Shown: piece by piece, positions 1 to 43,440 of the stretch
Position numbering within the stretch: position 1 is the stretch's first letter
Layout of the letters: every line of letters begins with the position of its first letter
UHGV virus genome: UHGV-0179428
DNA from: a virus
DNA: 64,000 nucleotides
Direction: 5' to 3' (one strand)
Position numbers and translations under genes: made by a program
Notes under the pieces: model-generated
Databases searched by the model: none
Told to the model about the DNA's origin: nothing
The model's input: only the letters and a program-made list of their open reading frames with translations

Positions 1-1193
1 ATTGCTTGCGCGTCGTTAATCTTCTTCTGATTATACCACCGGGCTTCACGAAAGACGTAGTTTTGACTGTCGAATTCGGTGGTGTTAAATACCCACTCAC
101 CCTCCTCCCATGTAGGCCAATAGCCCACCGTCTTTCCGAAACGATTATTTAAGTACCCTAATGGTTTTTCAGAATCAGGATCGCTAGGGTCCTTGAGATA
201 ACAACGTCCCCAAACTGCGTTATGCGATACACCCACAACCTCTTCTTCTAAATACGGATTATCTACCGTAAAGATAAACGAAGACTCGTGGAGTAAAAGC
301 GCCTTTAATGTTTCGGGGTTGCGAATACGTTGGACATTAGTAGGTGTTGATAAATCCCCTACACCGATGGCGTCCCAGTCGTAATAGCGGCGGGTTTCCA
401 GAACGGTCCGCGCAAGATCAAAATTCGGTAAAGAAATCATGATCGCACGGTCGGAGAAATAACCGCCCGGAGGCAACCAACGTAACAGTCCACCGATGAC
501 GAAACCCACCGTTTTTCCCGTGATAGATTCTGGCAGCGAAATCATTAGCGTGGAGTAATAGTCACGTGTAGTGTCGAGCTTGTTTAGGGTAAGGTTGGCA
601 ATGGGGTAAGTTTTAACATTCCCTAACTGACCAAAAACCATACAGCCGATATCTGGCGTACAGGCTCTTCGTACGATTTTACCGGCTCCAGGTAATCGCA
701 CACCTACGGTATCTGTCTGATGCGGTACCCATTGACCGTTAATGTTGTACAGTACACTATTACGGTATTTGTCCTTCCACTTGTCCTCACAAACGATGAC
801 AACGTCATCAGCATCGTCTAAGCTGAAATCTTGACTGTGGTGGTACCCAGGCGGACACAGATATGTTTCAACGGGTACGTCGGCATTAATCGATTGGTAA
901 TGTGCCCAACTGAATTCGAGTTTCGGCAATCCGGCCCTTAGAGTGGGGATGACGTTTCCGGCTTTTTCATTTAACCAATCTTGTAAAGTGTCTGTTCGGT
1001 TTTGTAGTTCGGCAAGATGGTATTGGCTGACTAACGTATAGTCTTTACCAAGTGCACTTAAACCGATCTCAAAGGTGTGGTAGTCTGAACACAACGTATT
1101 TAAGGGTTGCGTGACATCGATGGCTCCCCAGGTACGGGACTCTCGAGAGAAGCCAAAAGCGCTGTCGGGCCGCACTTGATAAGCAGTAGTCAC
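1..1193 (-). CDS. hypothetical protein, partial (C-terminal part lies outside the window)
   Basis: Stop-free minus-strand frame from the window edge to a GTG at 1191-1193 preceded by AGGA; translation begins VTTAYQVRPDSAFGF. Absent from the ORF track because no stop lies in the window. Hand-translated, so approximate. Confidence 0.55.
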   Translation of the reverse strand, partial: MTTAYQVRPDSAFGFSRESRTWGAIDVTQPLNTLCSDYHTFEIGLSALGKDYTLVSQYHLAELQNRTDTLQDWLNEKAGNVIPTLRAGLPKLEFSWAHYQSINADVPVETYLCPPGYHHSQDFSLDDADDVVIVCEDKWKDKYRNSVLYNINGQWVPHQTDTVGVRLPGAGKIVRRACTPDIGCMVFGQLGNVKTYPIANLTLNKLDTTRDYYSTLMISLPESITGKTVGFVIGGLLRWLPPGGYFSDRAIMISLPNFDLARTVLETRRYYDWDAIGVGDLSTPTNVQRIRNPETLKALLLHESSFIFTVDNPYLEEEVVGVSHNAVWGRCYLKDPSDPDSEKPLGYLNNRFGKTVGYWPTWEEGEWVFNTTEFDSQNYVFREARWYNQKKINDAQA

Positions 1194-1261
1194 AGCTCTT
1201 TTCCTCTATAGATTCAAGTCATAGTATGAACTTCGACGCCCACGGACTATAGGAGTAGAGA

Positions 1262-4200
1262 ATGGCTGTCGTCCTAGACCCACACTTCAAAAAACCGGGG
1301 AATAAAATAACCGGTGAAGCGGTCGCCGTCATTGGTACGAAATACCGAATGTTGGTACCTGCCCACGCCCCTTTTTTCACCACATCCCTGGTGGTCAAGA
1401 GCGGCGGCAAAACACTGACCTTAGGCGACGATTACATTATTACACACCCGTACGAGACCGGTATGTTGCGCACAGCCTATCTCATTCACGGGATGATTTG
1501 GATTGTTAATGACAAATACAAATCGAATTTTACGGTAGATTACCACGCCGTTGGTTGTGGTCAGGCTACCCAACAACAGATTACCGCAGAACGCGAACTC
1601 AATAAAGATAAATACCCGACTACGTGTCAGTGGGACACCGTCATCGGGGACGTTTACTTTCCGCCGGTCGATATCCAGTTCGATTGGGAGAATTGGAAAG
1701 GCGAACTGGAGTTAATGCAGGCTATTGCTGGATTAGGCGATTCGTTAGGGGAAGTCGTGAGTCGACTTAACCCCATCGCACGCAATACCCTGGATTTAGA
1801 ATACCGTGCTAACAGCAAGGTTATCACTTCCGAGCAGTATGCCGTATACGACAATAAAGGTGGTTTCACCTACAACACTACCCGTCATCGTTATAGCTTG
1901 AGTTATAAAACTGCAACCTTTAACGACTACGTCCTGTCCGTGAAACACAGAATTCCTGCTATTCTGCCAGACATGACGAAATTGAATCCAAACGAACAGA
2001 TCGATTGGATGCTCTGTTATGCTAACGGCGGTGCAAGCATTCTACGGTTGCAGCTAAAACAGCGCAAAATCTCACTGGTCTTAACGGTCGCTATTGGCAG
2101 CGGTTCAACAAACTACGATTATACGTTAATCAACGGTTTAACTGACGATGAGTTAAAAAACGATATCGATTTTAGTGTAACCCGTCAACCCGGAAACGGT
2201 GTTTACGTCATCGTAGTAAAAACAAATAAACAGACCATGGATTACACATTCAACGTCGATACGCCGCCTGATGAGTTCTCGGCAGGGTATTCGAAAACGG
2301 ATGTTGCTAAATGGTTGAAGTTTAAAACGAACATTAATCTAAACTGGTATGCGGCCGAAAACGATTATATTCAAATTCGTTCTTTACCCGGCGCACCAGA
2401 ACCTGACGTCGATAATGATGTTTACCAGTTAATAGTCAAATACCATCAGTTAGTTGAGCAGCTGTATCGTAACGCGCCTGCACACGAACACGTTACACGT
2501 AAGGACAACCCGCACACCGATACGTGGGGACCGATCCGTGCGTTAGAGCTGAATGGTATTGCGTCGGATGCCGCGTTAGCTTACGGGAAAACGAAACAGC
2601 AGTTAACGGATTACGTTAATGCTAAGTACCCAACACAAGCAACGTTAACCGCACAGAAAAAACTGCTTCGTGAATCGGCGAGCAAGAACGTTAACGGCAC
2701 GATTACCACACTTCCGGGTTTTACTTCGTTCACGACGGAAGTTGATCCGGTTTCGATGTCGAAATACGTGAGTCCTTATTTTAGCGAAAGCTATGTTAGT
2801 AGTGGTCACAGATATCACGGCGCGCTTCGTTACACAGGAACGAAAAGCGGTTTCAGTGCTAACTTTAATGCGGTGCCTGCCAACCTGCAAGATATTGACT
2901 TTATTGTTACTGGACGTAAAACAGCGTCTGGTAATGAAGCGGTCGGTAGGGTTGGTTTACGTTTCTACCAAAATCCTGGTAGTAACTCCGGTAAGTACGT
3001 AGAGATTACCGGTGAAATCTGGTCCGGTACTCTTACTATCGAACTGGCGTTGCACGGTTACGGTAGTCCGGTACCGGCAGTTCGGTATATTTCACAAGCT
3101 CCTAACCCGGCAATACCGGATGGGGATTTTACGCTACGTTTTCAACTGAAGCGTACAGGGAATGTGTTTGACGTCGTTATTACCGTAAACAGTAAAACGT
3201 ATAGCGGTCGGATTAACTTCAATAACATGGACGCTGCGTTAGAAGCATTAGAGAATCAGCACCACTTTAAATCGCTGATTAATAATGTTGCCGACGCCGT
3301 TACCATTAGTTCGCAAAACAAAGGTAACACAGTTACCATTAAGAAAGCACCGGATGTTGTTGACGAGACACGTTTAGGCGCTCAGTTTGTCGTTGATCCG
3401 AAATCCATTAAGTTCATCGGTCAAGGTTCTACTGATGTTAACGTGGGTAACAACCCCGTAACGTTCCAAGCAGGTACTAACCAGCTTGTGCTATACCCCG
3501 ATGACCGAGGATTGTTGTGGCGTGGTAAAAAACTCTTAGACCCCACCACCGTAGCCCCGTATCTGCCAGGCAATACCGCAGGTGGTACAGGTTTATTCTA
3601 CGCAAACTCGACAACAACGGTTACGATCACCGGTAGCGGGATAAAAGCCTCGCCGTTCGTAGCGACCTTTATTCTTCCTACCGCGACCGATACAACAGCT
3701 CTGGCGGCTTGGCAGTTGACCGATGAGTTTGGTACCGCTGAAAACCTTGCAGCAACGCCAGCACTGATTGAAAAACTCGATGCGGAGTTCACCGGTAAGT
3801 TAGTTGCAGTTAAATCGTACATTAACGACATGCAACTTACCAGCTCGGTTACTATCGATAAGATTACCTTTGGTTTAGGTAATGTTGCGAATACGCCTGA
3901 TGTTGATTTACCGATTTCTACAGCACAACGTGCGGAGTTAGATAAATACTCGCCTAAAGTTCACCAACACCCGTTTACCGCTTTTGGTACAGGGAACGCA
4001 ACCACAGCGAAACGTGGTCTGATTAAATTTGGTCTGGATGTGGATGATGCGACTTTAGCACTCGATGGGAGTGTGGTAATGGCGCAGACTTCCCAGATTG
4101 AAAAATTGGAGCGCGCTGTCAGCGGTGTTGACTCGGAGGCACGTCTTGACATTATACGTTTTGGTGAGTCTGGTAACGACTTAATAGACCTTACGGTCAA

Positions 4201-5584
4201 AGACAAAATTCTGGTCACGCTTCCAGCTTCAACGTATTTTATCGGTGGTGAAACATACGACGTTCCGTTGATGACGATTAACGTCAGTGAACGTTTTCCG
4301 AAATTGAATACAGAAATCTACGCAGGGATTTTTGTTGATATTGTTGACAACAAAGCGAAGTATATTGTCCATGACAGCTACAGTCAGGCTGAAACGGATA
4401 CCATGACGCGTGTAGGGTTGATTGGTGTTAACGACATTTCTGAGGTGTTCGTTACGGAGATGCGTAATGTCACACGGTTGGGTGATTTCCGTGAACTGAA
4501 AGATCATAAAGCCGATGACAACGCACACATTCAGCGCTCCGCGTCACGTGCAGCGCTTGGGTTAGCTAACTTAACCGTAGGCGCGCCTTGCTGGGCTTCT
4601 GGACTCCAGGCAGTAGTACGCGGTGAAGCAGATTGGCGTTATGTTGCCGGTGGGCAGTATAAAGCTTTAGACGGGGTGAAATACGACCAACTCGCATCAA
4701 AGTGGATTTTTGACGCGAAAGGGGTAAGCGATAACCTACACGGGTTTATCCACAACATGTTCCCAGCTTTTAAGAACGCAGGAATGCGGGTAAGTTGGGA
4801 AACAGAAAGCAACGCAAAAACCGGCACGGTGTTAGAAACTGTTTTAGGTTGTTGGAAAAACACCGACGGCGAGTTTATGCGGTTGTCGTTACTTATCACT
4901 CGTGGTTATCGTTTAACTGACAGCAATGGTGAATATTGTTACGCAGGGTTCGGTTTGAACTTCGGTAGCGGGAAATCGGTAGTGGTAGGTTTCACACCAA
5001 CGAAGCGTGTTACGCCTGCACCGTGGAATACGTTACAACCTGACGTAACGTTTACCCACACCCGTGCTGCAAACAACGCAATAACGTTTAACGCAACACT
5101 GACCTTAGCGGGCACTACGTATACCATCGTGGTGTTTTTATCTGCGACAGATAAATACGTAAGCTGCACGGCAGCAGGGGGAGCTACGCAGAAAATCCCT
5201 CTAACTGACCGTTTAACAGGGTTCAATATCGCACCTATCGTTAACGATCCGTATACCCCTATTTACTACGGTTTAGGGGGACTTTATGAGGATGAGGTTC
5301 GTGCCAACATCCGTTCTACGGCAGACAGCGCAACCTCGAATAAAGTCTATGGTACGTTGTTAGACTATATTAGCAACTATTCCTCATTAAATCGTGTGCG
5401 CGTTATGGAATTGACCGGTGTCAGTTCAGACCCCGAAACGCTTAATGCGTTAGTGGCAACTGAATTTAATAACAACCTGGCGGATTACGCTGCGTTACCG
5501 ATACCTCCTTATCTTAACAAGGAGCGCGTAATGTCGTTTATCGACACCAACAATAAAGTGCAGGCGGTAATCATTCGCGATTAA
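1262..5584 (+). CDS. giant tail fibre-like structural protein (1440 aa)
   Basis: Long ORF with AGGAG RBS; N-terminal module (PFF..LVV..G.TL.LGDDY) shared with the next three proteins; internal fibre-like motif FGLGNVANTPDVDLPISTAQ. Confidence 0.85.
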   Translation: MAVVLDPHFKKPGNKITGEAVAVIGTKYRMLVPAHAPFFTTSLVVKSGGKTLTLGDDYIITHPYETGMLRTAYLIHGMIWIVNDKYKSNFTVDYHAVGCGQATQQQITAERELNKDKYPTTCQWDTVIGDVYFPPVDIQFDWENWKGELELMQAIAGLGDSLGEVVSRLNPIARNTLDLEYRANSKVITSEQYAVYDNKGGFTYNTTRHRYSLSYKTATFNDYVLSVKHRIPAILPDMTKLNPNEQIDWMLCYANGGASILRLQLKQRKISLVLTVAIGSGSTNYDYTLINGLTDDELKNDIDFSVTRQPGNGVYVIVVKTNKQTMDYTFNVDTPPDEFSAGYSKTDVAKWLKFKTNINLNWYAAENDYIQIRSLPGAPEPDVDNDVYQLIVKYHQLVEQLYRNAPAHEHVTRKDNPHTDTWGPIRALELNGIASDAALAYGKTKQQLTDYVNAKYPTQATLTAQKKLLRESASKNVNGTITTLPGFTSFTTEVDPVSMSKYVSPYFSESYVSSGHRYHGALRYTGTKSGFSANFNAVPANLQDIDFIVTGRKTASGNEAVGRVGLRFYQNPGSNSGKYVEITGEIWSGTLTIELALHGYGSPVPAVRYISQAPNPAIPDGDFTLRFQLKRTGNVFDVVITVNSKTYSGRINFNNMDAALEALENQHHFKSLINNVADAVTISSQNKGNTVTIKKAPDVVDETRLGAQFVVDPKSIKFIGQGSTDVNVGNNPVTFQAGTNQLVLYPDDRGLLWRGKKLLDPTTVAPYLPGNTAGGTGLFYANSTTTVTITGSGIKASPFVATFILPTATDTTALAAWQLTDEFGTAENLAATPALIEKLDAEFTGKLVAVKSYINDMQLTSSVTIDKITFGLGNVANTPDVDLPISTAQRAELDKYSPKVHQHPFTAFGTGNATTAKRGLIKFGLDVDDATLALDGSVVMAQTSQIEKLERAVSGVDSEARLDIIRFGESGNDLIDLTVKDKILVTLPASTYFIGGETYDVPLMTINVSERFPKLNTEIYAGIFVDIVDNKAKYIVHDSYSQAETDTMTRVGLIGVNDISEVFVTEMRNVTRLGDFRELKDHKADDNAHIQRSASRAALGLANLTVGAPCWASGLQAVVRGEADWRYVAGGQYKALDGVKYDQLASKWIFDAKGVSDNLHGFIHNMFPAFKNAGMRVSWETESNAKTGTVLETVLGCWKNTDGEFMRLSLLITRGYRLTDSNGEYCYAGFGLNFGSGKSVVVGFTPTKRVTPAPWNTLQPDVTFTHTRAANNAITFNATLTLAGTTYTIVVFLSATDKYVSCTAAGGATQKIPLTDRLTGFNIAPIVNDPYTPIYYGLGGLYEDEVRANIRSTADSATSNKVYGTLLDYISNYSSLNRVRVMELTGVSSDPETLNALVATEFNNNLADYAALPIPPYLNKERVMSFIDTNNKVQAVIIRD

Positions 5585-5597
5585 GGAGAATTTTTTG

Positions 5598-8500
5598 ATG
5601 AAAGCGTATCCTTACGATCCTCGGGGGACGAAAGCCGAGAATCACTTCTTAGAGGAGCGTATCATCGGGTCAGAGAACAACAACGATCGGGTGGTGATTT
5701 TAGACCACCGCCCGTTCTTTGAAGATTTGGTCGTCAGACAACCAGGTTCAACCACCCCACTGAGTCGTGGGGTGGACTACGAACTGCAATATCAGCTGAC
5801 GGAACTGGATGACTCGGTAGCAGCCAACGTGTATTGTGGGGTACACCTTATCAACCCATCCATCAAGGGTATCGTAACCTTTGAAGGACAAATGCTCGGC
5901 GGTACGTTCTACGACCCGTTTGTTGATATTCTCGATGAACTGGTGAAATATTTGAATAACCCAGTCAGTGCTGACTGGTTGTTATTAGACGGTAGACCAT
6001 CGTTATATCCAGCGACGCCAGCAGCAACGTCCTGGGCGGATTTGCTGAACAAAAAATATTTAGCGTCGGCAGTTCACGACATTGAATTGAAAACCGACGA
6101 CGCTAACCAATTAATTAAAGACAAATTAGCTGAAGTTAAAGCGTTAGTGACTGCGTTGGGTAAAGAAATCGAAGCATTTAACTACCCAGCACATATCGCA
6201 GCGAAGAACCCGCACGAAACCACATCCGCGCAGATTAACGCGCATCCTGTTAACTTGAAAACCCCCGACACCTTTATGGCGTACGGGTTAAAGTTGAAAG
6301 CACTGACGGATGAGCTGAAAGCGTTTCGTTTACCCCAGTCAGTTATCGACACGTATATCTCTCACTGGATTTCTTCGGAAGTACGGGGCGTGTTTAACTG
6401 TACGGTGTCAGGAAACCGCGCACAGTTCCGTTCGAAAAACGGTGAGTCAGAAATCATTTTTGCCAACGATGGCTTTACGTTAAAATCCAACGGTTCTGTG
6501 GTATTAGCGGTAGGACATCTGGAAGGCACAGGTGCAGGACGTTACATTAATTGGCGTGCTGGTAAAAACACCTTACGTATCGAGTCAACCGGCGATGCTT
6601 TAGGGATGAACAAACTCACCCTGAATGGTAACCCGTTACTGACTACCACAGCTTTGATGGAATACCAACAAGATCCTGATGCTGGCGGGAGCGGCGGCGG
6701 TGATCCTGATGACTCGAAGGTGTACATCGAAGGCCGTAATGGGATTAGCTTCACCGGTAAAGGCTCTCGGACCGATCCTATCGTGGGTACTATCGACCCG
6801 ACGAAAGCGACAACCGCTGAAAAAGGTGTTGTTAAGCTTAAAACTGGTAAAGGTACAGAAACGGTTGGGGTTGCAGCAACGCCAGCGTCATTAACACCTT
6901 ATTCGACCGACCTATCAGGGTATGTGGCTAAAACGACCATGATTAACGGTAAGCCAATGAATGACGGCTCCAGGACAATCACGAAAGCTGACCTGGGGTT
7001 AGGGCAAGCGGATAACACCGCAGACCTTGACAAACCGTTGTCAACCGAGTTAACTAAGGCGGTTAGCGGTCTAGCAGATGTAGGCCATCATCACGATTGG
7101 TCGGAGTTAGGCATTTATAAAGCTTCTCAATCTGTTTACGGTATTGGTCGTTATGCAACTAACCAGAACGGTTTGGTTGAAAACCGTGCAGTGGTACCGA
7201 ACATCTTAAAAGAGCTTTCGGCACGTTTAAGTGTGGTCGCTGCGGCAATTGCAAATGCGAAAGAAGGAACAGTCACGGATTTCGCTGCTGTAAAAGGCGC
7301 AGACTGGCGATTTAATAGCCAGGGTACGGCAATCTCCGTTCAGGATTTGAAATATTTCTATTTGCTGGACGGCACGAAAGGTGACAGTACCGTTACCGGT
7401 GCGATTGACCTGCAAACCACCCCGATGTTTAACTGGTTCTCACCGAACAACCAACTTGAGCTGACTTGGGCTACGGGTAAGGTGAGTAACGGTACGGGAA
7501 TCAACTGGACGGGTATTGAAGAACCGCCATTGATGGGGTTCCAGTCTGTCCCGGTAGGTAAGACTGCTACACAGATGGGTGACCAGTCAGTTGTTACTGT
7601 ATTGGCAAAAACGCGTGTAAAAGCATACCAACCGAAGCTCTGGGTTTATGCTGCTGGGGGTGGTCCGGTTACGGTTTACATTAACGGTATCCAGGCAGCC
7701 ACAGGCCAGTCTCCACTCGTCGCGGTGTATGAAACGTCGTCAGACGTTGAAAATTACACAGTGGCGGTTAAAGCCGAGTGTAGCGACACGACTAAATCCG
7801 CAGCGGTACAGTTCGAAGTTTACGATGGTGACTACCCCGTTTATTTCAGTGGCCCTGAAACGCGCGTAGAGCTTCTCCAGGAGTTTGTTACAACGCACGT
7901 AGGGGTTCGTCACTATTTGTACGTTAACATGCTCACAGGCTCTCTGTATTCGCGTGCTGAACCGATTCAGAGTATTGCCGTCGACCCAGAACGCGGTTAT
8001 ATCGGTTATGTTGATATCGTTCCTGGTCAGTCTTACGCGAATAAAACTGTGGGATTTGAAACCACGTTTGATTTCGGGAAAAGTGCGGAAGTTAGCGAGC
8101 ACATCAGCACTCGTAAGGCACACGGTCTCAGCGCTGTTGACTGGGCGTTAACGGATAACCCACGGTTGCCGTTATTAAACCGTGCTATTGCTGAACCAAG
8201 AGCGTGTATCTTTAGGAAACCGTTAGCAACCGCTACAGGGGATGTTTTCCATCTTGTCAGTCGTGGCCTTTATACCTACGCACACAACCAAAACGTGAAG
8301 TCGAGTCTTCAATACGTTGTGATACCTGAAGGTGCTACGCCGTATTGTTGGTTTACACCATTTAACCCGAAAGAAAACAACGCACCGACATTCGAAGGCT
8401 CGTTTGCGTTCGATGTTGACGATGTTGGTGGAACGCAAGCCCTTGCTGCTGCGCCGGATTTGGTTCTATGCACGTCAACGCAAGGTAGCAGCGTTAAACG

Positions 8501-9779
8501 TCGCTATCTGCGCATTGACCTAACTACCAAAACCTGTAAGTTGGGGATTGGTTCCCGTTCAGATTCTGCTGTTACGGATATTCCGTTAGTGATGGAGGAG
8601 TCTGGGGAAACGGCAGTGGCCGCAACGTTTAAGGATGTGTTGTTCAACGGTGAGGAAACCAACGCGGCGACGCTCGACTTGATAGGTTGGGGTGCCAGCC
8701 GAGATAAAATTCCTGCAAACCATGCACCTCGTGGCATGATTCGCTATCGTTACAACGTAAACAGTCGGGTATTACGTTTAGCACTGACGTTCTCACAGTT
8801 CGGAACGACAACAGTTAAACATCGACAGCTGGAGATTCAATTCCCGTTCGATTTAGTGGATTATTTCACTGGCGACGGTGTGGGATTGTCGTTTAAAGAA
8901 CTGTCTGCGAAATGTCGTGTAACGATTAGTCACGCGCTGATTGATCCGGCTACGAGTAACGTCGACATTGATAAGTACCATTACTTACGTTCGTTGTTCG
9001 AATCGTATCTGGATTCGTCCGTTGGGTATTTGGCTGATACCAAAGACGTTGATTTTAGTCAGTCTGTGATTGACCCTGCGACTTATGAGGTTAGTCAAAA
9101 ATACCGCGTTACAGAAAGCATCGCGCTGCCAACCGGCCAGGGAAGTGTTGCTGTTTCCCATGACGGTCAGTTGCCTGCGCAGTTCTTTGACCGTAAGCTG
9201 TCTCGTGGTGCCTTGATGGCCAAGAAAGGTGAACTCAACGCTTCCTGGAATAATGAGTGGAGCACGACTAAAGCTGCTGCGAGTCGTTATCGCCATAAAC
9301 TCATTCTACGCTTTGCACAAGGTGCTGATAAACAGCAGTATCGCGTTGCAAAAGTGGCCGGGACGGTGAAGTCTAACTGGCCGGGTAAAGTGATTATCGG
9401 TGATGCCGGGAAGGACCCGTATGTATCGGCTATTGATAGCGTATCTTTTGCGCTTTCGACCGCCTCTGATACAGGTAAAGCGATTACTCTTACGCCAAAG
9501 GACTTACGTGTAGGTCAAGACATTTATATTGTCTTAGAACCGCCCGGCAATAATCCAGAAGGTTATGAACTTAACTTCACTTGTTCGTTAGATGTCACTG
9601 ACGAGAAAAGTGTCCGTCAAGATCAACTCAATGCACAGAGTTTCGAACTCCGTAGCGGCGAAAGTCAGTTCTTAATGGAGAAACGCAACCCGTACCACAT
9701 CACGAGTAAAGCGTGGAAGTGGATTCTGGCTGTACTGAAACGAGAACTTAACGGGAAGCAGTTAGGGGATCGTACTTAG
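5598..9779 (+). CDS. giant tail fibre protein (about 1393 aa)
   Basis: ATG at 5598 after AAGGAG (track start 5595 is TTG); shared N-terminal module (RPFFEDLVV...GVDYEL); fibre motif KADLGLGQADNTADLDKPLST and HHH box; terminator follows at 9817-9854. Confidence 0.85.
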   Translation: MKAYPYDPRGTKAENHFLEERIIGSENNNDRVVILDHRPFFEDLVVRQPGSTTPLSRGVDYELQYQLTELDDSVAANVYCGVHLINPSIKGIVTFEGQMLGGTFYDPFVDILDELVKYLNNPVSADWLLLDGRPSLYPATPAATSWADLLNKKYLASAVHDIELKTDDANQLIKDKLAEVKALVTALGKEIEAFNYPAHIAAKNPHETTSAQINAHPVNLKTPDTFMAYGLKLKALTDELKAFRLPQSVIDTYISHWISSEVRGVFNCTVSGNRAQFRSKNGESEIIFANDGFTLKSNGSVVLAVGHLEGTGAGRYINWRAGKNTLRIESTGDALGMNKLTLNGNPLLTTTALMEYQQDPDAGGSGGGDPDDSKVYIEGRNGISFTGKGSRTDPIVGTIDPTKATTAEKGVVKLKTGKGTETVGVAATPASLTPYSTDLSGYVAKTTMINGKPMNDGSRTITKADLGLGQADNTADLDKPLSTELTKAVSGLADVGHHHDWSELGIYKASQSVYGIGRYATNQNGLVENRAVVPNILKELSARLSVVAAAIANAKEGTVTDFAAVKGADWRFNSQGTAISVQDLKYFYLLDGTKGDSTVTGAIDLQTTPMFNWFSPNNQLELTWATGKVSNGTGINWTGIEEPPLMGFQSVPVGKTATQMGDQSVVTVLAKTRVKAYQPKLWVYAAGGGPVTVYINGIQAATGQSPLVAVYETSSDVENYTVAVKAECSDTTKSAAVQFEVYDGDYPVYFSGPETRVELLQEFVTTHVGVRHYLYVNMLTGSLYSRAEPIQSIAVDPERGYIGYVDIVPGQSYANKTVGFETTFDFGKSAEVSEHISTRKAHGLSAVDWALTDNPRLPLLNRAIAEPRACIFRKPLATATGDVFHLVSRGLYTYAHNQNVKSSLQYVVIPEGATPYCWFTPFNPKENNAPTFEGSFAFDVDDVGGTQALAAAPDLVLCTSTQGSSVKRRYLRIDLTTKTCKLGIGSRSDSAVTDIPLVMEESGETAVAATFKDVLFNGEETNAATLDLIGWGASRDKIPANHAPRGMIRYRYNVNSRVLRLALTFSQFGTTTVKHRQLEIQFPFDLVDYFTGDGVGLSFKELSAKCRVTISHALIDPATSNVDIDKYHYLRSLFESYLDSSVGYLADTKDVDFSQSVIDPATYEVSQKYRVTESIALPTGQGSVAVSHDGQLPAQFFDRKLSRGALMAKKGELNASWNNEWSTTKAAASRYRHKLILRFAQGADKQQYRVAKVAGTVKSNWPGKVIIGDAGKDPYVSAIDSVSFALSTASDTGKAITLTPKDLRVGQDIYIVLEPPGNNPEGYELNFTCSLDVTDEKSVRQDQLNAQSFELRSGESQFLMEKRNPYHITSKAWKWILAVLKRELNGKQLGDRT

Positions 9780-9873
9780 GACAGACTGCCTGCGGGCAGT
9801 TGTGTGTCCGTAGGTAACCCCTCCCTGTAATGGGGAGGGGTATCCATTTTATTTAAAAGTAGGAGTCTTTACG

Positions 9874-12800
9874 ATGCCGAGAGAAGACGCGGCGCAGTTT
9901 AACGGTACGCTAAGCACAGTGACGTACCCTAACCGATTTAACGTGGTCATTCCGCCTGAAGGACCTTTTTATCGTATCGGATTAAAACTCACAGTAGCCG
10001 ACGATACCGCGCCTAACGGACGTCGTACTCTGATTGAGGGGTTGGACTACTATTTAGGCTATTACTTTAAAGAACTCGCAGAAGCTGAACAAGATCAGAT
10101 TTATGGCGGGTTTATGTTGCTTACTGCAACAGAAATCGAATATGAGATTTTAGGGGTAGCACGGCAGTATCGTGTACCGCAATCTGAAATCGGGAAGTTC
10201 TTAGTTCGTACTGACCTGAAAGACCCACGTAACGTGGACTGGTCGGAGTTAATGGCGTACGCGCCGGTTATTCAACCAATCGACCCCCCTGCTAACTTAG
10301 AAGAAGCTATTCTGAGGGACGAGGTCGTTAAAGCGTTGAACGATATCCGCAAGAAAATCATTCAGCGTTCAACAGAGTTAGATGCGGCCTTCACCGAAGT
10401 CACTAACCTGATTTACGAGAACGGTAAAAAGATTTTCGATGAAGAACTATACCAACACCACCTTAATCCTAACGCTCACCAGTATACGACCAATGACGTT
10501 GGGGCCCTTCCGGTTTTAGGACGTGCTGTTGACGCTACAAAAGCGTTTGGGTTGACAATTGACCAACTGGCTACGCTGATGGGTTCGGCGGGCATTGAGC
10601 AATCAGACGTTGAACAGTTAATGGGCGAAGCCCTCGGTACCGTTTACGGTCGTTGGGGTACCACGAACGGTAATGAACTAACGTTTAAAACACCGGGTGG
10701 ACACATCATCAGCATCCGTGGTGATAAGTGGTTAATTACTTCACCACAACCGTTAGTGATTAAAGCAGACCAAGACAACAACGAATCCGGTTTGGCGGTT
10801 GAGTTTAGTGCGGGGCTGAATACGCTTTGGGTACACTCTGGGTCAGAACAGGATGTATTAGCACCGGTCTATAACTCTGTGTATTTGGTTACACCAGAAA
10901 TGGTGAACATGTACCTGACGTCTGTAACGTTACTTGAAGCGAACGCCTATTTCAAATCGTCTGACACCGTAAAACCGTACGGTACAGCGAAGCAGTCTAA
11001 CCCACTAACGTTGAATGCGAATATTCCCACAGCAACCGAGTCGGTTTATGGGGTGTTTTCGATTACGAATATCGCAACCTCTGTAGCGCTAGGCACTGCT
11101 ATTTCCCAAAAGGCTGTGACCGAGTTAAAAAACCGGTTGGACTTGTACGTTGATGATAGCTACACGGTTAACGGTAAAGGGTTTGTTAAGACAGGCGACA
11201 ACATGGTGTTAACCTTAACGAAGGCCGATTTCGGTATCGATAAGATGAATAACACCACACCCATCGCTAAACCGGTAACAAAAGCATTAGCGAACGTGCT
11301 GAAAAATAAAAGTTTGAAGGTACACACGCACACTACCGCTGATTTGGATAATGTCCCGATTGGTAGCGCAACAGTGGACGGTATCTTACAGCTGTGGGAT
11401 GCGATTGATACCACGAATGATAAAGCCGTTACATCACGCCAAGGGTGGTTGTTCGCAAAAGAGATTAAGAAGGTCTCTGATAAACTGAATACCCTCTTGC
11501 CCGCATGGACAACGGCCGGGAGCAAATATACCAACAATTCGATATTGCCGATCTTGTCGATGGGTAATTACGAAGGTTATGGTAAAAACATGGATGCGCT
11601 CCAGATGGTTATAGGGGTACAACAAGGTAAGCTTTACGCTTTAATTAGTTCTAAATCTGCCCTTCCGGGAACTGAGGGTATTTATTACGCTGTTGCTGGG
11701 TTAAAAAACGACAAAAGTCTCGGTGAAATTTACAAAACAACTTTCCGTTATAAGCCGAAAGGGTTAGAGACGAATTATCCGGGGGTGGAACTAAAAGAAA
11801 TTACCGTTACTGGTACCGAAGCATTTATAGCGAAGGGCAGCGACGATAATTATTATTTAGTTAAACTGAACGGTTCAATGGATTACACCAAACATACCGA
11901 TGTCAGGTTGGTAACTTTCTCAGAATTTGTTTCAGAAACAACATGGGAATTTGTGCCGAATATGTTCATGGATCGTGTGGTCATAGCCGATAACGGCGTC
12001 TATGTTTTGCGTACGATGCTAATGGCCGATCTGAAAAACAATAGTCTGGTGGACTACATTAAGGATACTCCGCAACCTATGTTCCGTGTTGGGTTATTGC
12101 GGCTTAATAAAACCGATCGGTTTGAACAGGTTGATTTAAGCTCTACACGAAAAATCGGTAAGTGTGCCGATTTGGTTGAACCTGGCGCGTTCGATGTAGA
12201 TAATCCGAATACGAAGCGTCTTGCCTACTTCACTGCGGAAGGCAAAGCGTTGTGGACAGTGAATTTACAATTAACTAGAGGGGTGTCAAGATGGATAACG
12301 CCCGTTGTTAAGGACGGTCACTTGTTAACCGTCGGCGTGTCTGGCGTTTGTCTTGGTTTTTCTTCAACGAAAGGTACCACATTCGGGCCATGGAATGGTG
12401 CTTATCGTCTCGACCTATTAACCGGGGAGGTTGGGTTAGAGACAACTAACATCTTCCCAATCAAAATCGATACTACAGGTTGCTACTTAAAAGACGGAAC
12501 AAAAATAGAGCTGAAATGGAAATGGGCTACTCGAAGTTCTGGCTATATGACCGACAATAGAATCTGTGTCGGTGATATGGTTTATTCTTGCTGCTGTTCG
12601 ACAGAAAAACAACTTGCACCATCTCTCCATTACCAGAAACTCCCAGAAGGAGTTAGTTATCTGGACTATGTTAAGTTGAGTGCGGGGTATGAGGGGCAAT
12701 CTACGTTTGAAAATCGGATAAACCCTGTGGTGGGTTCGGTGTGGAAACCGTCTATGACCTTCCCATTGTTCTTCCCAGGAACAAACAAAGTATGGCTTAA

Positions 12801-15060
12801 ACATCAAAAAACGGCTTATTTCATTGAAGCCGAATATGATAAAGATACGACTTATGGTTATCCTGGATACGGCGGGTTTGGACCAACATCCCGCCGTGTT
12901 GAAAAAAAAGCGAACGAATACGGCGTATTGACAAATATACCGCTGGTTGTTACGCCAGACATACCGAAAGGTCTACTAGATGGGGCTTACTTTATCGGTG
13001 CTGAAAGTAAACCATGTAAAGTTGTTTACGGTACCACTACGGTGGCTAGTGATCGGTTGTCTATCGATGCGGCAGAATGGGCGAAGTTGACTAATATTGT
13101 TCAGTCCAGCCAGTTCTCTGGGGCTTCTAACGGCAACGCCTATGAGCGGATTAGCGTAGCTAAGACCAAAAAGAACAACTACAGTTTGTCCTTTTGGGTG
13201 CTTGGTCAAACGATGTCTGGTGGTCCGCTTTGTATCGCGATAGTGAGTCTTATCTATAAAGACACTGACGGGGTAAATAAGTTTGCTTTTTACTTCTTTC
13301 AGGTAAAACCGACTATAACCAACGGGGTCATAAGGTTCGTTAGTTCGGAAGCGAGAATGATGACGTTCAGGGAAAAAGTGGCCAGTAACGCCATTAATCT
13401 CTCACCCACAGCTTTTAATGGTGAACTTAAACAACGCTCCGGTCAAGTTTTCCTTTATTCGCAAGACGGACAAAAGTTCAGATTCTCAATACATAACCTG
13501 GTTGGCGGGAATCTTGTAGGATCAGAGATTTCTTTTGCTTTTGGGATAAACTTGACTAAAAAAGGAGAATGGTTTACCGGCGAAATTCATCGGGCGTGGG
13601 GCTATACGTATACGCTGAATAATACATCTGAAGTCTATATACCCGATCTCTCGGGCATCGCGCTATTGACTTGTAACTCGGAAGATTTAAACGAGTTGTA
13701 TCTCGGTGGCGAACAGTATAGAATCTCTGATTTGTTTAACAAAAAATATACTGTTATCGATAAGATTATTATTGGCGGCGTACAAACACAGAGCGGTTGG
13801 AATTTCTATCTGACGGAGGAAACCGAGTTAAGTTTTGGAAATAAAAGATATACCGTTCCAAGATGGTCCGTTGATTTAAGCGATGAATTCCCGACTAATC
13901 ACGCTAACCAGACATTCTACGTTTATGCTGAAGTGGTCGGTTCTACTGCCCAATACCGCATCGGTTTAGAGCAGTTAGCTGATACCTCGTCGAGACTGTT
14001 TGTTGGGACAGTAACCACTGATTCGAACCGTATTACGGATATCAGTATCGATAAAGTAAAACGGTTAGGTCGTGTAAAAGAGCTGGAAAATCATGCCTCG
14101 GTTGTTGATCAGCACGATGTGGCGCAGGCGTTCGACAGGAAAACTGGTCCACTATTAACAGTGGTTAATAAACCCGTTAAAGCCATTACAGCATCTGCGA
14201 GCAAGGGTGCTGGGTATGTCGATGGTCAGAAATGGAATACGTTGTCCGGGATTGCAACGCGGCCCAGGTTGCCGGTACAGGAAACCTATTCAGGTTATAA
14301 AAGTATCAGCAGGGTGGCGTATGAGAACTGCGCTGACCAGTTCTGGCAGAAAGCGGTTGCTGCGAACGTTGCAGCGGCTACTGCTTCTGAGAACAAACAA
14401 GCAGCAACCGCGAACATGAAGTGGTTGGGTGCGTATACGAAACCGACTACCGGCGAGTATGCATATCTGGCATTGAGTCTGCGTGTTAAAGTACCTGGCG
14501 ATCCTGGTACTACTAATCGTCGACTGAAAATCAGGCTTGCGGCCCCGACAGGTATAACTCAAGTTCGTTACGGGCTAAATCAGTCTGGCGGTACGATGAC
14601 TGAACAGACAGTAACATTAACTGCTAACAGCTATCTGGAAAAAGAACACGCCGGATTTAAGCCAGCCGAAGAAGTCCGTGTACATGCTACGTTTGTCATT
14701 CCAAAAAATGAATACGATAGCTACCGTACGAAGTTCGGTGCTGTTCAGCTGATTGACGTTGAGTCGAACACTGTCATTAAACAGACAGATATCGACACAC
14801 CGTTTATCGTGTATACCGACACGGAGTTAGCAGCACAATCTGGTTTGGTGTATAAAGCGGTTAAGGGTCAGTTCCATCAACTCCCGTCTCAACCTGTCGT
14901 CATTGTAACTGATGGACAGACAGGGACTACGCCACCGGTGAAAACCTCGTTTGCTGACGGGACATTAACGGTCTACGTGGCAACCACGTACGACGCGGTG
15001 AATCCAGCACAAACGCGCGATATCGATAAGCTCCAGTTCAATCTTATGTTTACATCTTAA
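9874..15060 (+). CDS. giant tail fibre protein (1728 aa)
   Basis: AGGAG RBS; shared N-terminal module (GPFYRIGL...GLDYYL); fibre motif KADFGIDKMNNTTPIAKPV and HTHTTADLDNVP. Confidence 0.85.
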   Translation: MPREDAAQFNGTLSTVTYPNRFNVVIPPEGPFYRIGLKLTVADDTAPNGRRTLIEGLDYYLGYYFKELAEAEQDQIYGGFMLLTATEIEYEILGVARQYRVPQSEIGKFLVRTDLKDPRNVDWSELMAYAPVIQPIDPPANLEEAILRDEVVKALNDIRKKIIQRSTELDAAFTEVTNLIYENGKKIFDEELYQHHLNPNAHQYTTNDVGALPVLGRAVDATKAFGLTIDQLATLMGSAGIEQSDVEQLMGEALGTVYGRWGTTNGNELTFKTPGGHIISIRGDKWLITSPQPLVIKADQDNNESGLAVEFSAGLNTLWVHSGSEQDVLAPVYNSVYLVTPEMVNMYLTSVTLLEANAYFKSSDTVKPYGTAKQSNPLTLNANIPTATESVYGVFSITNIATSVALGTAISQKAVTELKNRLDLYVDDSYTVNGKGFVKTGDNMVLTLTKADFGIDKMNNTTPIAKPVTKALANVLKNKSLKVHTHTTADLDNVPIGSATVDGILQLWDAIDTTNDKAVTSRQGWLFAKEIKKVSDKLNTLLPAWTTAGSKYTNNSILPILSMGNYEGYGKNMDALQMVIGVQQGKLYALISSKSALPGTEGIYYAVAGLKNDKSLGEIYKTTFRYKPKGLETNYPGVELKEITVTGTEAFIAKGSDDNYYLVKLNGSMDYTKHTDVRLVTFSEFVSETTWEFVPNMFMDRVVIADNGVYVLRTMLMADLKNNSLVDYIKDTPQPMFRVGLLRLNKTDRFEQVDLSSTRKIGKCADLVEPGAFDVDNPNTKRLAYFTAEGKALWTVNLQLTRGVSRWITPVVKDGHLLTVGVSGVCLGFSSTKGTTFGPWNGAYRLDLLTGEVGLETTNIFPIKIDTTGCYLKDGTKIELKWKWATRSSGYMTDNRICVGDMVYSCCCSTEKQLAPSLHYQKLPEGVSYLDYVKLSAGYEGQSTFENRINPVVGSVWKPSMTFPLFFPGTNKVWLKHQKTAYFIEAEYDKDTTYGYPGYGGFGPTSRRVEKKANEYGVLTNIPLVVTPDIPKGLLDGAYFIGAESKPCKVVYGTTTVASDRLSIDAAEWAKLTNIVQSSQFSGASNGNAYERISVAKTKKNNYSLSFWVLGQTMSGGPLCIAIVSLIYKDTDGVNKFAFYFFQVKPTITNGVIRFVSSEARMMTFREKVASNAINLSPTAFNGELKQRSGQVFLYSQDGQKFRFSIHNLVGGNLVGSEISFAFGINLTKKGEWFTGEIHRAWGYTYTLNNTSEVYIPDLSGIALLTCNSEDLNELYLGGEQYRISDLFNKKYTVIDKIIIGGVQTQSGWNFYLTEETELSFGNKRYTVPRWSVDLSDEFPTNHANQTFYVYAEVVGSTAQYRIGLEQLADTSSRLFVGTVTTDSNRITDISIDKVKRLGRVKELENHASVVDQHDVAQAFDRKTGPLLTVVNKPVKAITASASKGAGYVDGQKWNTLSGIATRPRLPVQETYSGYKSISRVAYENCADQFWQKAVAANVAAATASENKQAATANMKWLGAYTKPTTGEYAYLALSLRVKVPGDPGTTNRRLKIRLAAPTGITQVRYGLNQSGGTMTEQTVTLTANSYLEKEHAGFKPAEEVRVHATFVIPKNEYDSYRTKFGAVQLIDVESNTVIKQTDIDTPFIVYTDTELAAQSGLVYKAVKGQFHQLPSQPVVIVTDGQTGTTPPVKTSFADGTLTVYVATTYDAVNPAQTRDIDKLQFNLMFTS

Positions 15061-15100
15061 CGCCACGAGACAAGGACGTCTCGGATTAAGGAGAGTGGCC

Positions 15101-16300
15101 ATGGCCTCCATTGTATACCAATACCCTTTAGATTTAACGGGAAGCCTAACCTCTAACGCCGTGGAGCGTCAGGTTACGTTAGGTACAGGTAAAGTTAACC
15201 GTGCGTTTGCTTTTCCTGATGGACCGTTTTATGCCGATACGTTCCGCTTGCGGGTTGCCAACCGACCCGATGCGACGTATGAGCGCGGAACGGACTATGA
15301 GTTGATTTTTGCACATCCGGCTTACGAGAAATTGACGAAGAACCGGGAAGTGGTAATGGCGGTTGTTGTAACGAACACCGCCATTCCGACCGATATCACG
15401 GTATCGGCGCAAGTAGTCGGGGGTCCGCAGTCTGCAAACGTGACTGCGATAGAACAGGCGATTGCTGAGTTGAATCTCGATAATCGAACTGTCGGCTTTA
15501 AAGACTTGCGAAATGTTCCTGATACATTTCCGTCAGCACCAACGTATAAAGACGTCGGTGATATTTACGGTTTCGAATATATCATTACAGTGCTCGCTGG
15601 CATTAAAGATGCGATAACGGCGGGCGATGCTGTACAGCTTGAGAACATCAAAGCGATTCTCGAAAGCCTGAAAAACGATTTCCTGGACGCGCTGAACGCA
15701 CACATTAACGCCACGGGTAACGTCCACCATCTGGATATTCACCAGGTTAACGGGTTAACAGAAACGGAGATCCGTGCACTTATCCGTGATGTACAGTCTG
15801 CCATCGATGCAACCATTACCGATATTAATGCGTTGAAGAAAGCAGATGAAGCGTTAGGAAAACGTATTGATGCTGTTGTCAAATCTTTGGAAGCGTGGAA
15901 CGACCAACTTAACATCGTTGCACAAAACTACCAGAAAATGGCATTGGCATTGGCGAACCTAAATTCGTTAGTGTTACAGTTACAGAAAAATATCAACGAT
16001 CTGAACACCAAACTCAACCAAGCGATTCAGCGCATTGCTGCGTTAGAACAGCGGGGTAATGAGTCCGATCAGAAAATTGATAATCTGCAACAAAACCTGG
16101 ATGCGCTTAAACAACAGGTTGCGAATAACACGAACGCAATCAGTCAGGCGAATCAGAACCTACAAAACCATATTGCGGCAGATAACCCACACACGGGCTA
16201 TCTCCACAAGAAATACGGTGGTGTGGTTCAGGCTCCAGTGCACGTTAACGCTAACTTGACGTCCCGTGATGACGTTCAGGCAGAAGCGGGTACGAAATAA
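15101..16300 (+). CDS. coiled-coil fibre/needle-like structural protein (about 399 aa)
   Basis: ATG at 15101 after AAGGAGAG (track start 15095 is GTG); shared N-terminal module (GPFYADTFRL...GTDYELIF); long heptad-like Q/N/L-rich coiled-coil region. Confidence 0.8.
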   Translation: MASIVYQYPLDLTGSLTSNAVERQVTLGTGKVNRAFAFPDGPFYADTFRLRVANRPDATYERGTDYELIFAHPAYEKLTKNREVVMAVVVTNTAIPTDITVSAQVVGGPQSANVTAIEQAIAELNLDNRTVGFKDLRNVPDTFPSAPTYKDVGDIYGFEYIITVLAGIKDAITAGDAVQLENIKAILESLKNDFLDALNAHINATGNVHHLDIHQVNGLTETEIRALIRDVQSAIDATITDINALKKADEALGKRIDAVVKSLEAWNDQLNIVAQNYQKMALALANLNSLVLQLQKNINDLNTKLNQAIQRIAALEQRGNESDQKIDNLQQNLDALKQQVANNTNAISQANQNLQNHIAADNPHTGYLHKKYGGVVQAPVHVNANLTSRDDVQAEAGTK

Positions 16301-16310
16301 CTTTATTACA

Positions 16311-16355
16311 GGAGGAACTATGCTTATGGGCGTAGTCCTCCATTCTTTTTTATTT
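16311..16355 (+). terminator. rho-independent terminator-like hairpin plus T-run between the fibre gene and the Cys-rich peptide genes
   Basis: Imperfect inverted repeat GGAGGAACTA...TAGTCCTCC followed by ATTCTTTTTTATTTT. Confidence 0.5.
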
Positions 16356-16367
16356 TAAGGATACGTG

Positions 16368-16763: not shown

Positions 16764-16773
16764 GAGGTGAAAA

Positions 16774-17172: not shown

Positions 17173-17174
17173 TT

Positions 17175-17381: not shown

Positions 17382-17530
17382 CTAAGCCCTCCAGTGGTAG
17401 TATGTCTATTACGCAATAACCGAGTTAATTGTACGGGTTTACTACTGAGTTTCAAGTCACCGGTAGGCAATGGCGCGGTGGTTTCTATACCCTGAATGTC
17501 CGTTTGACCGTGAAATAATTGGAGCAATCA

Positions 17531-43431: not shown

Positions 43432-43440
43432 TAAAACCTC

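What the first reader, a model, noticed from the sequence alone, without database searches (positions are those of the whole stretch)
1262..16300. Four consecutive fibre proteins share a roughly 50-aa N-terminal module
The 1440-, 1393-, 1728- and 399-aa proteins all begin with a related segment: (A/R/G)PF(F/Y)...(L/V)......G..(T/D)..(L/Y).(G/E)..DY.L. Three also carry the tail-fibre motif K.D(L/F)G(L/I)(G/D)..(N/D)NT.D.DKP and histidine boxes. A shared N-terminal anchor on divergent fibres suggests several alternative or simultaneous fibres docking to one baseplate site, as in phages with branched receptor-binding arrays.
Basis: seen in the sequence. Interest (0 to 1): 0.55.

Follow-up and report, generated by a model that had tools for sequence, protein, structure and literature searches.

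The report
Shared baseplate anchor on four fibre proteins
Four neighbouring tail-fibre genes of a giant SPN3US-like phage start with the same anchor domain, which is the already described "gp131-like" domain that related giant phages use to bundle several fibre proteins onto one baseplate site.

Summary
All four proteins (window 1262-16300, + strand) begin with a homologous module, which no other reading frame in the window carries. It is about 170-200 aa long, not 50.

The window is a jumbo phage related to Salmonella phage SPN3US. The four genes are syntenic orthologues of SPN3US gp170, gp169, gp168 and gp167. They follow a divergently transcribed orthologue of gp171, which is related to phiKZ gp130.

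The module is the known gp131-like N-terminal domain of phiKZ gp131/133/134/135. Related paralog sets are 201phi2-1 gp216-220 and SPN3US "paralog family C". In the 2026 phiKZ cryo-EM atlas, six such domains plus a six-helix bundle form each of 12 fibre attachment sites beneath gp130.

All four SPN3US orthologues are found in virions at similar abundance. This favours simultaneous incorporation over alternative use.

Possibly new: the family has two old subtypes. The short protein D is clearly gp135-type. The SPN3US lineage seems to have multiplied the long type, where phiKZ multiplied the short one. Stoichiometry is inferred, not shown.

Seen in passing: a CXXX-repeat peptide plus radical-SAM cassette, and a fifth, P1/T-even-like fibre without this module.

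The parts
1..1193 (-). gp130-like / SPN3US gp171-like baseplate protein. It is divergently transcribed and its C-terminal end is cut by the window edge. It is the presumed platform under which the fibre base docks.
   Evidence: 77% identical to SPN3US gp171. BLASTP against phiKZ-type gp130 (KTN4_165) gives E = 9e-13 over 334 aa. Matches phrog_3337. SPN3US gp171 is an essential tail protein. In phiKZ the attachment sites lie beneath gp130.
1262..5584 (+). Protein A (1440 aa), orthologue of SPN3US gp170. Layout: N-module, insertion, helix with NPH motif, a second insertion of about 206 aa (aa about 495-700) that SPN3US lacks, shaft with fibre motif, divergent C-terminal part.
   Evidence: Identity to gp170 is 58-72% over aa 1-500 and falls to 27-37% from aa 1100 onwards.
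1262..1771 (+). gp131-like N-terminal module of A (aa about 1-170).
   Evidence: phrog_2163 match at aa 4-154, E = 6e-18. Leave-one-out HMM E = 1.4e-5. Family HMM E = 1e-37.
3851..4024 (+). Fibre motif of A with His box: TFGLGNVANTPDVDLP...HQH (aa 864-921).
   Evidence: Matches tail-fibre PHROGs 35419 and 24919.
5598..9779 (+). Protein B (1393 aa from the ATG at 5598), orthologue of SPN3US gp169.
   Evidence: Identity to gp169 falls from 70% at the N-terminus to 24-37% at the C-terminus.
5598..6110 (+). gp131-like N-terminal module of B.
   Evidence: phrog_2163 match at aa 4-216, E = 3e-30. Leave-one-out HMM E = 1.6e-5. Family HMM E = 5.5e-38.
6975..7148 (+). Fibre motif of B with His box: KADLGLGQADNTADLDKP...HHH.
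9817..9841 (+). Strong terminator-like hairpin (11-bp stem, 7 G-C pairs) between B and C.
   Evidence: Terminator-like sites as a whole are not enriched in the region (16 found, 17.9 expected).
9874..15060 (+). Protein C (1728 aa), orthologue of SPN3US gp168.
   Evidence: Identity to gp168 is 55-73% over the first 500 aa and 16-45% beyond. B and C are homologous over about 480 aa (E = 2e-19).
9874..10443 (+). gp131-like N-terminal module of C (aa about 1-190). Subtype: gp131-type.
   Evidence: Leave-one-out HMM E = 8e-8. 59 bits against the gp131-type HMM versus 14 bits against the gp135-type HMM.
11212..11385 (+). Fibre motif of C with His box: KADFGIDKMNNTTPIAKP...HTH.
15101..16300 (+). Protein D (399 aa from the ATG at 15101), orthologue of SPN3US gp167. 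Layout: N-module, long coiled coil (aa about 225-360), C-terminal NPH motif.
   Evidence: 77.5% identical to gp167, uniformly along its length. Coiled-coil Pfam and NCBIfam hits. Best phiKZ match is the gp135 position (KTN4_170).
15101..15739 (+). gp131-like N-terminal module of D. Subtype: gp135-type. A beta-sandwich (aa about 20-107), a helix (116-128), a linker, then helices 160-206.
   Evidence: AF2 models have pLDDT 80.5 and pTM 0.74 for aa 1-132, and pLDDT 70 for aa 1-215. 120 bits against the gp135-type HMM versus 58 bits against the gp131-type HMM.

Best explanation
The four genes are the fibre/peripheral-baseplate paralog array of an SPN3US-like chimallivirus, orthologous to SPN3US gp170, gp169, gp168 and gp167.

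Each protein starts with the gp131-like N-terminal domain. This is a small beta-sandwich of about 110 aa, followed by a short helix, a W..(I/L)...P..(F/Y)PP-type linker and a long helix.

By homology with phiKZ, these N-domains and helices from several different paralogs pack together. In phiKZ, six domains around a six-helix bundle form one fibre base that hangs beneath the gp130-like protein (here the divergent gene at 1-1193) on the peripheral baseplate.

All four proteins are therefore built into every virion at the same time. The conserved first 400-500 aa hold them in the machine. The fast-diverging C-terminal parts of A, B and C contact the host.

**Shown here:**
- homology of the four modules to each other and to the phiKZ domains;
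- conserved synteny with a gp130 homologue;
- the predicted fold;
- the N-to-C gradient of conservation.

**Taken from the literature on relatives:** virion incorporation and the location at the attachment site.

**Inferred only:** the stoichiometry. My preferred version is three copies of the gp135-type D plus one each of A, B and C per site. This mirrors the arrangement proposed for phiKZ, of three gp131 plus gp133, gp134 and gp135.
For: - **Module homology.**
- **Orthology and synteny with SPN3US gp167-171.**
- **Same family as phiKZ.** The family HMM hits phiKZ-type gp131/133/134/135 at E = 1e-24 to 1e-33. It finds tandem arrays next to a divergent gp130-like gene in phiKZ, 201phi2-1, RAY, Goslar and 2050HW. 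HMMs built only from those other genera hit A-D at E = 1e-19 to 3e-38.
- **gp130 homologue in the window.**
- **Fold.** The predicted beta-sandwich plus helices matches predicted structures of chimallivirus virion proteins, including phiKZ-like PA7, with 56 hits at E < 1e-3.
- **Position in the protein.** The module is always N-terminal, on proteins of 159-2488 aa, in 3240 cluster representatives.
- **Conservation gradient.** Identity to SPN3US is about 70% at the N-termini and 16-35% at the C-termini of A, B and C. D is 70-81% identical throughout.
- **phiKZ cryo-EM.** Six gp131-like N-domains plus a six-helix bundle sit beneath gp130 at 12 sites.
- **SPN3US proteomics.** gp167 scores 1.90, gp169 1.41, gp168 1.08 and gp170 1.00 spectra/kDa, against 0.93-1.29 for the 12-copy portal. 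The proteins are absent from tailless particles, and gp171 is an essential tail protein.
- **D as the threefold partner.** D is clearly gp135-type and is the most abundant of the four in SPN3US.
Against: - No structure or proteome exists for this phage itself. Everything about location rests on relatives with only 15-30% identity in the module.
- The phiKZ fibre-base model was rigid-body fitted at about 4.4-4.6 A, and its authors call it a "candidate" hetero-hexamer.
- The gp131-like N-domain chains did not turn up in the PDB copy, so I could not compare my model with an experimental one.
- Subtype assignment is weak for A (65 vs 57 bits) and tied for B (71 vs 71 bits).
- SPN3US gp167 is only 1.3-1.9 times as abundant as gp168-170, not 3 times.
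- A, B and C carry motifs typical of trimeric fibres. This fits homotrimers at least as well as one copy each per site.
Confidence: 0.8

Rival explanations
1. Same anchor function, different assembly. Each of the four paralogs forms its own homotrimer, and each six-domain attachment site takes two different homotrimers (3+3). With 12 sites this gives 24 trimer slots, filled by six trimers of each protein, or about 18 copies of each. The virion would then carry four distinct homotrimeric fibres.
For: - A, B and C each carry the GLG..NT...P / HxH motif common in trimeric phage fibres, and D has a long coiled coil.
- Goslar and 2050HW have only two members near the gp130-like gene, which fits 3+3.
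- The SPN3US abundances of the four proteins agree within a factor of two.
Against: - The phiKZ atlas fitted four different paralogs into one site, with gp131 present three times.
- RAY has three members, which does not divide neatly into 3+3. Only +/-20 kb was scanned, however.
- The abundances of gp168-170 resemble that of the 12-copy portal.
Confidence: 0.3
2. The four proteins are alternative fibres. They compete for the same docking site, so individual virions or infections carry different subsets, giving a bet-hedging host range.
For: A common anchor on divergent distal parts is formally compatible with competition. The C-termini diverge quickly.
Against: - All four SPN3US orthologues are present together at similar levels in purified virions.
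- The phiKZ density shows several paralogs in one site.
- The four lineages are conserved as a fixed, ordered set between this phage and SPN3US. This argues for non-interchangeable positions.
- I did not look for an inversion or switching element in 1-17500.
Confidence: 0.04
3. The shared N-terminus is only a remnant of tandem gene duplication, or an assembly/chaperone-recognition tag removed during maturation. On this view it is not a structural anchor.
For: The genes are tandem paralogs. No experiment on this phage exists.
Against: - The module is the best conserved part of A, B and C, while their C-termini have drifted to 16-35% identity.
- It is kept at the N-terminus of thousands of otherwise unrelated proteins.
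- It is fitted into virion density in phiKZ.
- The SPN3US fibre paralogs are not among the proteins reported as processed (one search lists the eight processed proteins, all of the head).
Confidence: 0.03

Closest known systems
phiKZ gp131, gp133, gp134 and gp135 (the gp131-like N-terminal domain; PMC13250141, and Sycheva et al. 2012 as cited there)
   Same: - Homologous N-terminal domain followed by a helix.
- A tandem array of four members directly after a divergently transcribed gp130-type gene.
- Divergent C-terminal parts.
- Two subtypes (gp131-type and gp135-type) are recognisable in both phages.
   Different: - phiKZ has one long member (gp131, 771 aa, with a C-terminal beta-propeller) and three short ones of about 460 aa.
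- This phage has three giants of 1393-1728 aa and one short member of 399 aa.
- Identity in the module is only about 15-25%.
- No propeller or other phiKZ C-terminal domain was detected here by sequence.
SPN3US "paralog family C" (gp168, gp169, gp170) plus gp167 (PMC5694885, PMC10052503, PMC5105663)
   Same: - Direct orthologues in the same order and orientation, next to the gp171 orthologue.
- In SPN3US they are virion tail proteins of similar abundance.
   Different: - The published family lists three members. The gp167 orthologue (D) is shown here to carry the same module.
- A has a 206-aa insertion that gp170 lacks.
- The C-terminal halves are only 16-48% identical, which suggests a different host specificity.
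201phi2-1 gp216-gp220 paralog family
   Same: The GenBank notes already call these virion proteins paralogs of each other and relatives of the phiKZ proteins. The family HMM hits four of them.
   Different: Their sizes are phiKZ-like: one of 738 aa, three of about 440-460 aa, and a 107-aa member.
T7 gp17 N-terminal tail-attachment domain and other podophage fibre or tailspike anchors
   Same: - The job is the same: an N-terminal domain fixes a trimeric fibre to the tail.
- A similar short L..G.DY string occurs in both.
   Different: - There is no detectable sequence relationship: hmmsearch scores 1.9 bits and hhalign gives probability 0.07%.
- There is no Pfam PF03906 hit.
Branched receptor-binding arrays of CBA120 (TSP1-4), G7C (gp63.1/gp66) and phiKp24
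   Same: Several different receptor-binding proteins are carried at once on one baseplate.

Membership tests
gp131-like N-terminal domain family (phiKZ gp131/133/134/135) | Sequence homology of the N-terminal 130-200 aa to the phiKZ proteins | tested here: met
   HMMs built only from phiKZ, 201phi2-1, Goslar, RAY and 2050HW members hit A-D at E = 2e-21, 4e-23, 2e-19 and 3e-38. The family HMM hits the four phiKZ-type proteins at E = 1e-24 to 1e-33.
gp131-like N-terminal domain family (phiKZ gp131/133/134/135) | The domain lies at the extreme N-terminus of proteins whose C-terminal parts are unrelated | tested here: met
   This holds for all four window proteins and for all 150 best representatives, which range from 159 to 2488 aa.
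gp131-like N-terminal domain family (phiKZ gp131/133/134/135) | A tandem array of paralogs next to a divergently transcribed gp130 homologue | tested here: met
   The window ORF at 1-1193 (-) matches phiKZ-type gp130 at E = 9e-13. The same layout occurs in five other genera.
gp131-like N-terminal domain family (phiKZ gp131/133/134/135) | Fold: a globular N-domain followed by a helix that can enter a helical bundle | tested here: inconclusive
   The AF2 model shows a beta-sandwich plus helices. It matches predicted structures of phiKZ-like proteins. No experimental coordinates of the phiKZ N-domains were found in the PDB copy for comparison.
gp131-like N-terminal domain family (phiKZ gp131/133/134/135) | Physical location: six domains per fibre attachment site beneath gp130 | not testable with these tools
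   Known only for phiKZ, from cryo-EM.
SPN3US paralog family C / virion tail proteins | Orthology with gp168-170 (and gp167), with conserved gene order | tested here: met
   Full-length BLASTP matches at 40-77% identity, in the same order and strand.
SPN3US paralog family C / virion tail proteins | Presence in the virion tail | not testable with these tools
   Shown for SPN3US by mass spectrometry of wild-type and tailless particles. Not shown for this phage.
T7 gp17 N-terminal domain (Pfam Phage_T7_tail) | Match to the family profile or to T7 gp17 itself | tested here: not met
   No Pfam hit at E <= 10 on the isolated modules. hmmsearch scores 1.9 bits. hhalign gives probability 0.07%.
T7 gp17 N-terminal domain (Pfam Phage_T7_tail) | Same fold | tested here: inconclusive

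The most novel reading that the evidence does not exclude
The family consists of two ancient subtypes, and every attachment site needs three of each. Different chimallivirus lineages have split different halves of this hexamer.

- phiKZ turned the gp135-type half into three genes: gp133, gp134 and gp135.
- The SPN3US lineage turned the long half into three giant genes: A, B and C.

On this reading, each of the 12 fibre complexes of this phage would be a D homotrimer plus one copy each of A, B and C. Three different receptor-binding arms of 140-190 kDa would then leave a single base, possibly through a heterotrimeric proximal shaft.
Probability: 0.3. Interest if true: 0.5.

Novelty: already known. 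Interest (0 to 1): 0.22.

Why it matters
The module explains how giant phages mount several different host-binding proteins on one baseplate site. It also marks where the constant "handle" ends and the exchangeable host-range part begins, at about aa 400-500 in A, B and C. That boundary is useful for engineering or predicting host range in SPN3US-like phages.

Because the family and its location are already published for phiKZ, 201phi2-1 and SPN3US, this finding adds another instance rather than a new principle.

The two-subtype and reciprocal-expansion pattern gives a testable prediction for fibre stoichiometry in SPN3US-type virions. No fibre structure was found for them in the searches made here.

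Tried and rejected
1. **PDB by sequence.** D alone gave only coiled-coil noise. The profile of 12 modules returned only a short W..L..P..FPP..H linker-motif match to 9d93 "tail collar fibers gp4", and no phiKZ N-domain chains. Full-length A, B and C gave nothing credible.
2. **Foldseek of the 215-aa model against the PDB.** No hit at E <= 0.001. The best was a Carin-1 tailspike N-terminus at E = 0.014.
4. **Pfam and NCBIfam.** No model covers the module, even for the phiKZ proteins. It is not DUF7941, which is present elsewhere in the window.
5. **The word-indexed protein search.** It found only 5 and 12 relatives. The exhaustive HMMER search was needed.
The N-terminal pattern matches none of the proteins, and the fibre pattern matches only B strictly.
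7. **Sigma-70 promoter and terminator scans.** They are not informative: counts are at or below shuffled expectation, and chimalliviruses use their own RNA polymerases.
8. **Assigning A and B to a subtype from the N-domain alone.** This failed. The scores are nearly tied.
Full report
**What is there**

The window has four consecutive + strand ORFs:
- A, 1262-5584, 1440 aa;
- B, 5595/5598-9779;
- C, 9874-15060, 1728 aa;
- D, 15095/15101-16300.

The gaps between them are 10-94 nt. A divergently transcribed gene lies upstream at 1-1193 and is cut by the window edge.

The ATGs at 5598 and 15101 have proper Shine-Dalgarno spacing. They also match the N-termini of the SPN3US orthologues and of a 399-aa database relative that is 93% identical to D.

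**Is the shared module real?**

Yes.
- An independent profile, phrog_2163, matches the N-terminus of all four at E = 6e-18, 3e-30, 4.5e-40 and 8e-103.
- Leave-one-out HMMs on the first 170 aa recover the omitted protein at E = 1.4e-5 to 1e-9. The best unrelated ORF among 378 six-frame ORFs scores E >= 0.14.
- With only the first 90 aa the recovery is marginal (E 0.01-0.05).
- PHROG and HMM alignments run to aa about 155-215. The module is therefore about 170-200 aa, not about 50.
- The invariant core is PF(F/Y)...G.DY.
- No other ORF in the 64 kb carries the module.

The second observation also holds. B has the strict motif KADLGLGQADNTADLDKP. C and A have looser versions. Each is followed about 34 aa later by an HxH box, and D has none. 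These regions match tail-fibre PHROGs.

**What it is**

DNA and protein searches place the window in a jumbo phage related to Salmonella phage SPN3US and to Erwinia phages such as Asesino and Stratton.

The array is syntenic with SPN3US gp171 (divergent), gp170, gp169, gp168 and gp167. Identities:

| Window protein | SPN3US orthologue | Identity |
|---|---|---|
| Upstream gene | gp171 | 77% |
| D | gp167 | 77.5% |
| A (N-terminal 494 aa) | gp170 | 68% |
| A (C-terminal 740 aa) | gp170 | 45% |
| B | gp169 | 48% overall |
| C | gp168 | 40% overall |

Along A, B and C, identity to SPN3US falls from about 70% in the first 400-500 aa to 16-35% at the C-termini. D stays at 70-81% throughout. A also has a 206-aa insertion (aa about 495-700) that gp170 lacks.

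**The module belongs to a large, known family**

- An exhaustive HMMER search found 3240 cluster representatives at E <= 1e-3, of which 2251 are at <= 1e-10. Among the 150 best, the domain always lies at the N-terminus, and the proteins range from 159 to 2488 aa.
- A family HMM finds tandem arrays directly after a divergent gene of about 410-430 aa in several phages:
  - four members in SPN3US, phiKZ (strain KTN4: the gp131, gp133, gp134 and gp135 positions) and 201phi2-1 (gp216, 218, 219, 220);
  - three members in RAY;
  - two members in Goslar and 2050HW.
- The window's upstream gene matches phiKZ-type gp130 at E = 9e-13.
- No Pfam or NCBIfam model covers the module.

**Structure**

- AlphaFold2 on D aa 1-132, with a 15-sequence alignment, gives pLDDT 80.5 and pTM 0.74. 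The model is a beta-sandwich (strands between aa 22 and 107) plus a helix at 116-128.
- The 215-aa model adds helices at 160-206, at lower confidence.
- Foldseek against predicted viral structures returns 56 hits at E < 1e-3. Those that carry a name are virion proteins of large myoviruses, mostly recognised phiKZ-like phages, including PA7, often with several hits per phage.
- Against solved structures nothing is significant by Foldseek.
- A sequence link to T7 gp17 was tested and rejected.

**What the literature already says**

- The 201phi2-1 GenBank record annotates gp216-220 as mutual paralogs found in virions.
- Thomas and co-workers defined SPN3US "paralog family C" (gp168-170). They described these as low-abundance tail proteins related to phiKZ gp131 and absent from tailless particles (PMC5694885, PMC10052503, PMC5105663).
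- Their supplementary table lists gp167 at 1.90, gp169 at 1.41, gp168 at 1.08, gp170 at 1.00 and gp171 at 0.74 spectra/kDa. The 12-copy portal scores 0.93-1.29.
- The 2026 phiKZ atlas (PMC13250141) reports 12 fibre attachment sites beneath gp130. [quoted passage not shown] The authors model this as a candidate hetero-hexamer of three gp131 plus gp133, gp134 and gp135.
- The Goslar preprint could not resolve this region.

**How it most likely works**

The N-module is a docking and bundling device. Copies from different paralogs assemble side by side under the gp130-like protein, so all four proteins are present in each virion. The conserved proximal part is structural. The divergent distal parts of A, B and C bind the host.

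This much follows from homology plus published data on relatives (confidence about 0.8).

The stoichiometry is inference. Two subtypes are cleanly separable in other genera. In cross-genus leave-one-out tests, members score 115-207 bits against their own subtype and 43-110 bits against the other. The distribution is also bimodal across the 150 representatives.

| Protein | gp131-type HMM (bits) | gp135-type HMM (bits) | Assignment |
|---|---|---|---|
| A | 65 | 57 | slightly gp131-type |
| B | 71 | 71 | tied |
| C | 59 | 14 | gp131-type |
| D | 58 | 120 | clearly gp135-type |

Goslar and 2050HW have one member of each subtype. phiKZ has one gp131-type and three gp135-type members. This phage has one gp135-type member and three long ones.

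A "three plus three" rule would give three D plus A, B and C per site. The main rival is two homotrimers per site. The spectral counts cannot separate 36:12:12:12 from 18:18:18:18.

Alternative use of the fibres is unlikely, given co-detection in SPN3US and the multi-paralog density in phiKZ.

**Verdict**

The feature is already known, so interest is low to moderate. Two points I did not find stated in the papers read:
- the gp167-type protein carries the same module as family C;
- the two lineages appear to have expanded opposite subtypes.

**Other things in the window**

- Directly downstream lie two 132-aa CXXX-repeat Cys-rich ORFs and two radical-SAM/SPASM genes.
- There are several DUF7941 paralogs.
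- There is a fifth fibre gene without the module. It is P1 S-like and T-even-like, and it comes with two gp38-like adhesin genes.

Noticed in passing
window 16365-17172 (+) and 17519-20669 (+): There are two tandem 132-aa ORFs. Each has a leader of about 50 aa followed by about 20 cysteines in C-x3-C repeats. Both match phrog_6085, and the second just reaches TIGR04114, "Cys-rich repeat-containing protein" (model name tSAM_targ_Cxxx). They are followed by a 299-aa ORF of unknown function and two radical-SAM genes. The 440-aa one matches the CXXX-repeat-target peptide maturase family TIGR04115 (E = 6.5e-33) and PapB-type ranthipeptide maturases, both below the curated cut-offs. Together this looks like a RiPP-type precursor-plus-maturase cassette right after the fibre genes. 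It is conserved in SPN3US-like phages. The annotated SPN3US gp166 looks like a wrong-frame call over the Cys-rich region. One literature search (radical SAM + jumbo phage + cysteine-rich) found nothing.
   Followed up: partly
window 36922-42726 (-): This is a fifth fibre gene (38224-42726, 1500 aa; the likely true start is the Met at residue 21). It has a Phage_fiber_2 repeat, a T4 gp34 trimerisation domain and a Peptidase_S74 chaperone domain. It is 54% identical to the phage P1 tail-fibre protein (gene S) over aa 252-1390. Two gp38-like adhesin genes follow it (37442-38224 and 36922-37425), about 80% identical in DNA to RB49/JSE gene 38. Local G+C is higher (0.47-0.49, against about 0.39-0.42 nearby). 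The protein lacks the gp131-like module. Its first 45 aa or so resemble the N-termini of neighbouring small virion paralogs, so it probably attaches by a different route. It looks horizontally acquired from E. coli phages.
   Followed up: partly
window 21931-23668 and 26824-27672 (-); also 36315-36875 and 42865-43464 (-): There are several small paralogous virion-protein genes carrying DUF7941 (PF25613) or matching phrog_2935. They probably correspond to SPN3US "paralog family B", but I did not test that. A 2026 Goslar preprint proposes that DUF7941 proteins form long filaments on the peripheral baseplate.
   Followed up: partly
window 2744-3361 (protein A aa about 495-700): Protein A has a 206-aa insertion that SPN3US gp170 lacks. 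A metagenomic relative of the same length (1440 aa, 94% identical) has it too. A also shares a domain of about 145 aa with C (A 994-1139 and C 1321-1460, E = 8e-5). The function of both segments is unknown.
   Followed up: no
window 9817-9841 (+): A strong hairpin (11-bp stem, 7 G-C pairs) with a T-rich tail lies between the stop of B and the start of C. It may be a terminator or attenuator inside the fibre gene array.
   Followed up: no
window 25682-26272 (-) and 21180-21851 (+): An endolysin-like gene (Glyco_hydro_108 plus PG_binding_3) and a DUF4376 protein with weak tail-fibre PHROG similarity lie just downstream of the fibre and radical-SAM block.
   Followed up: no
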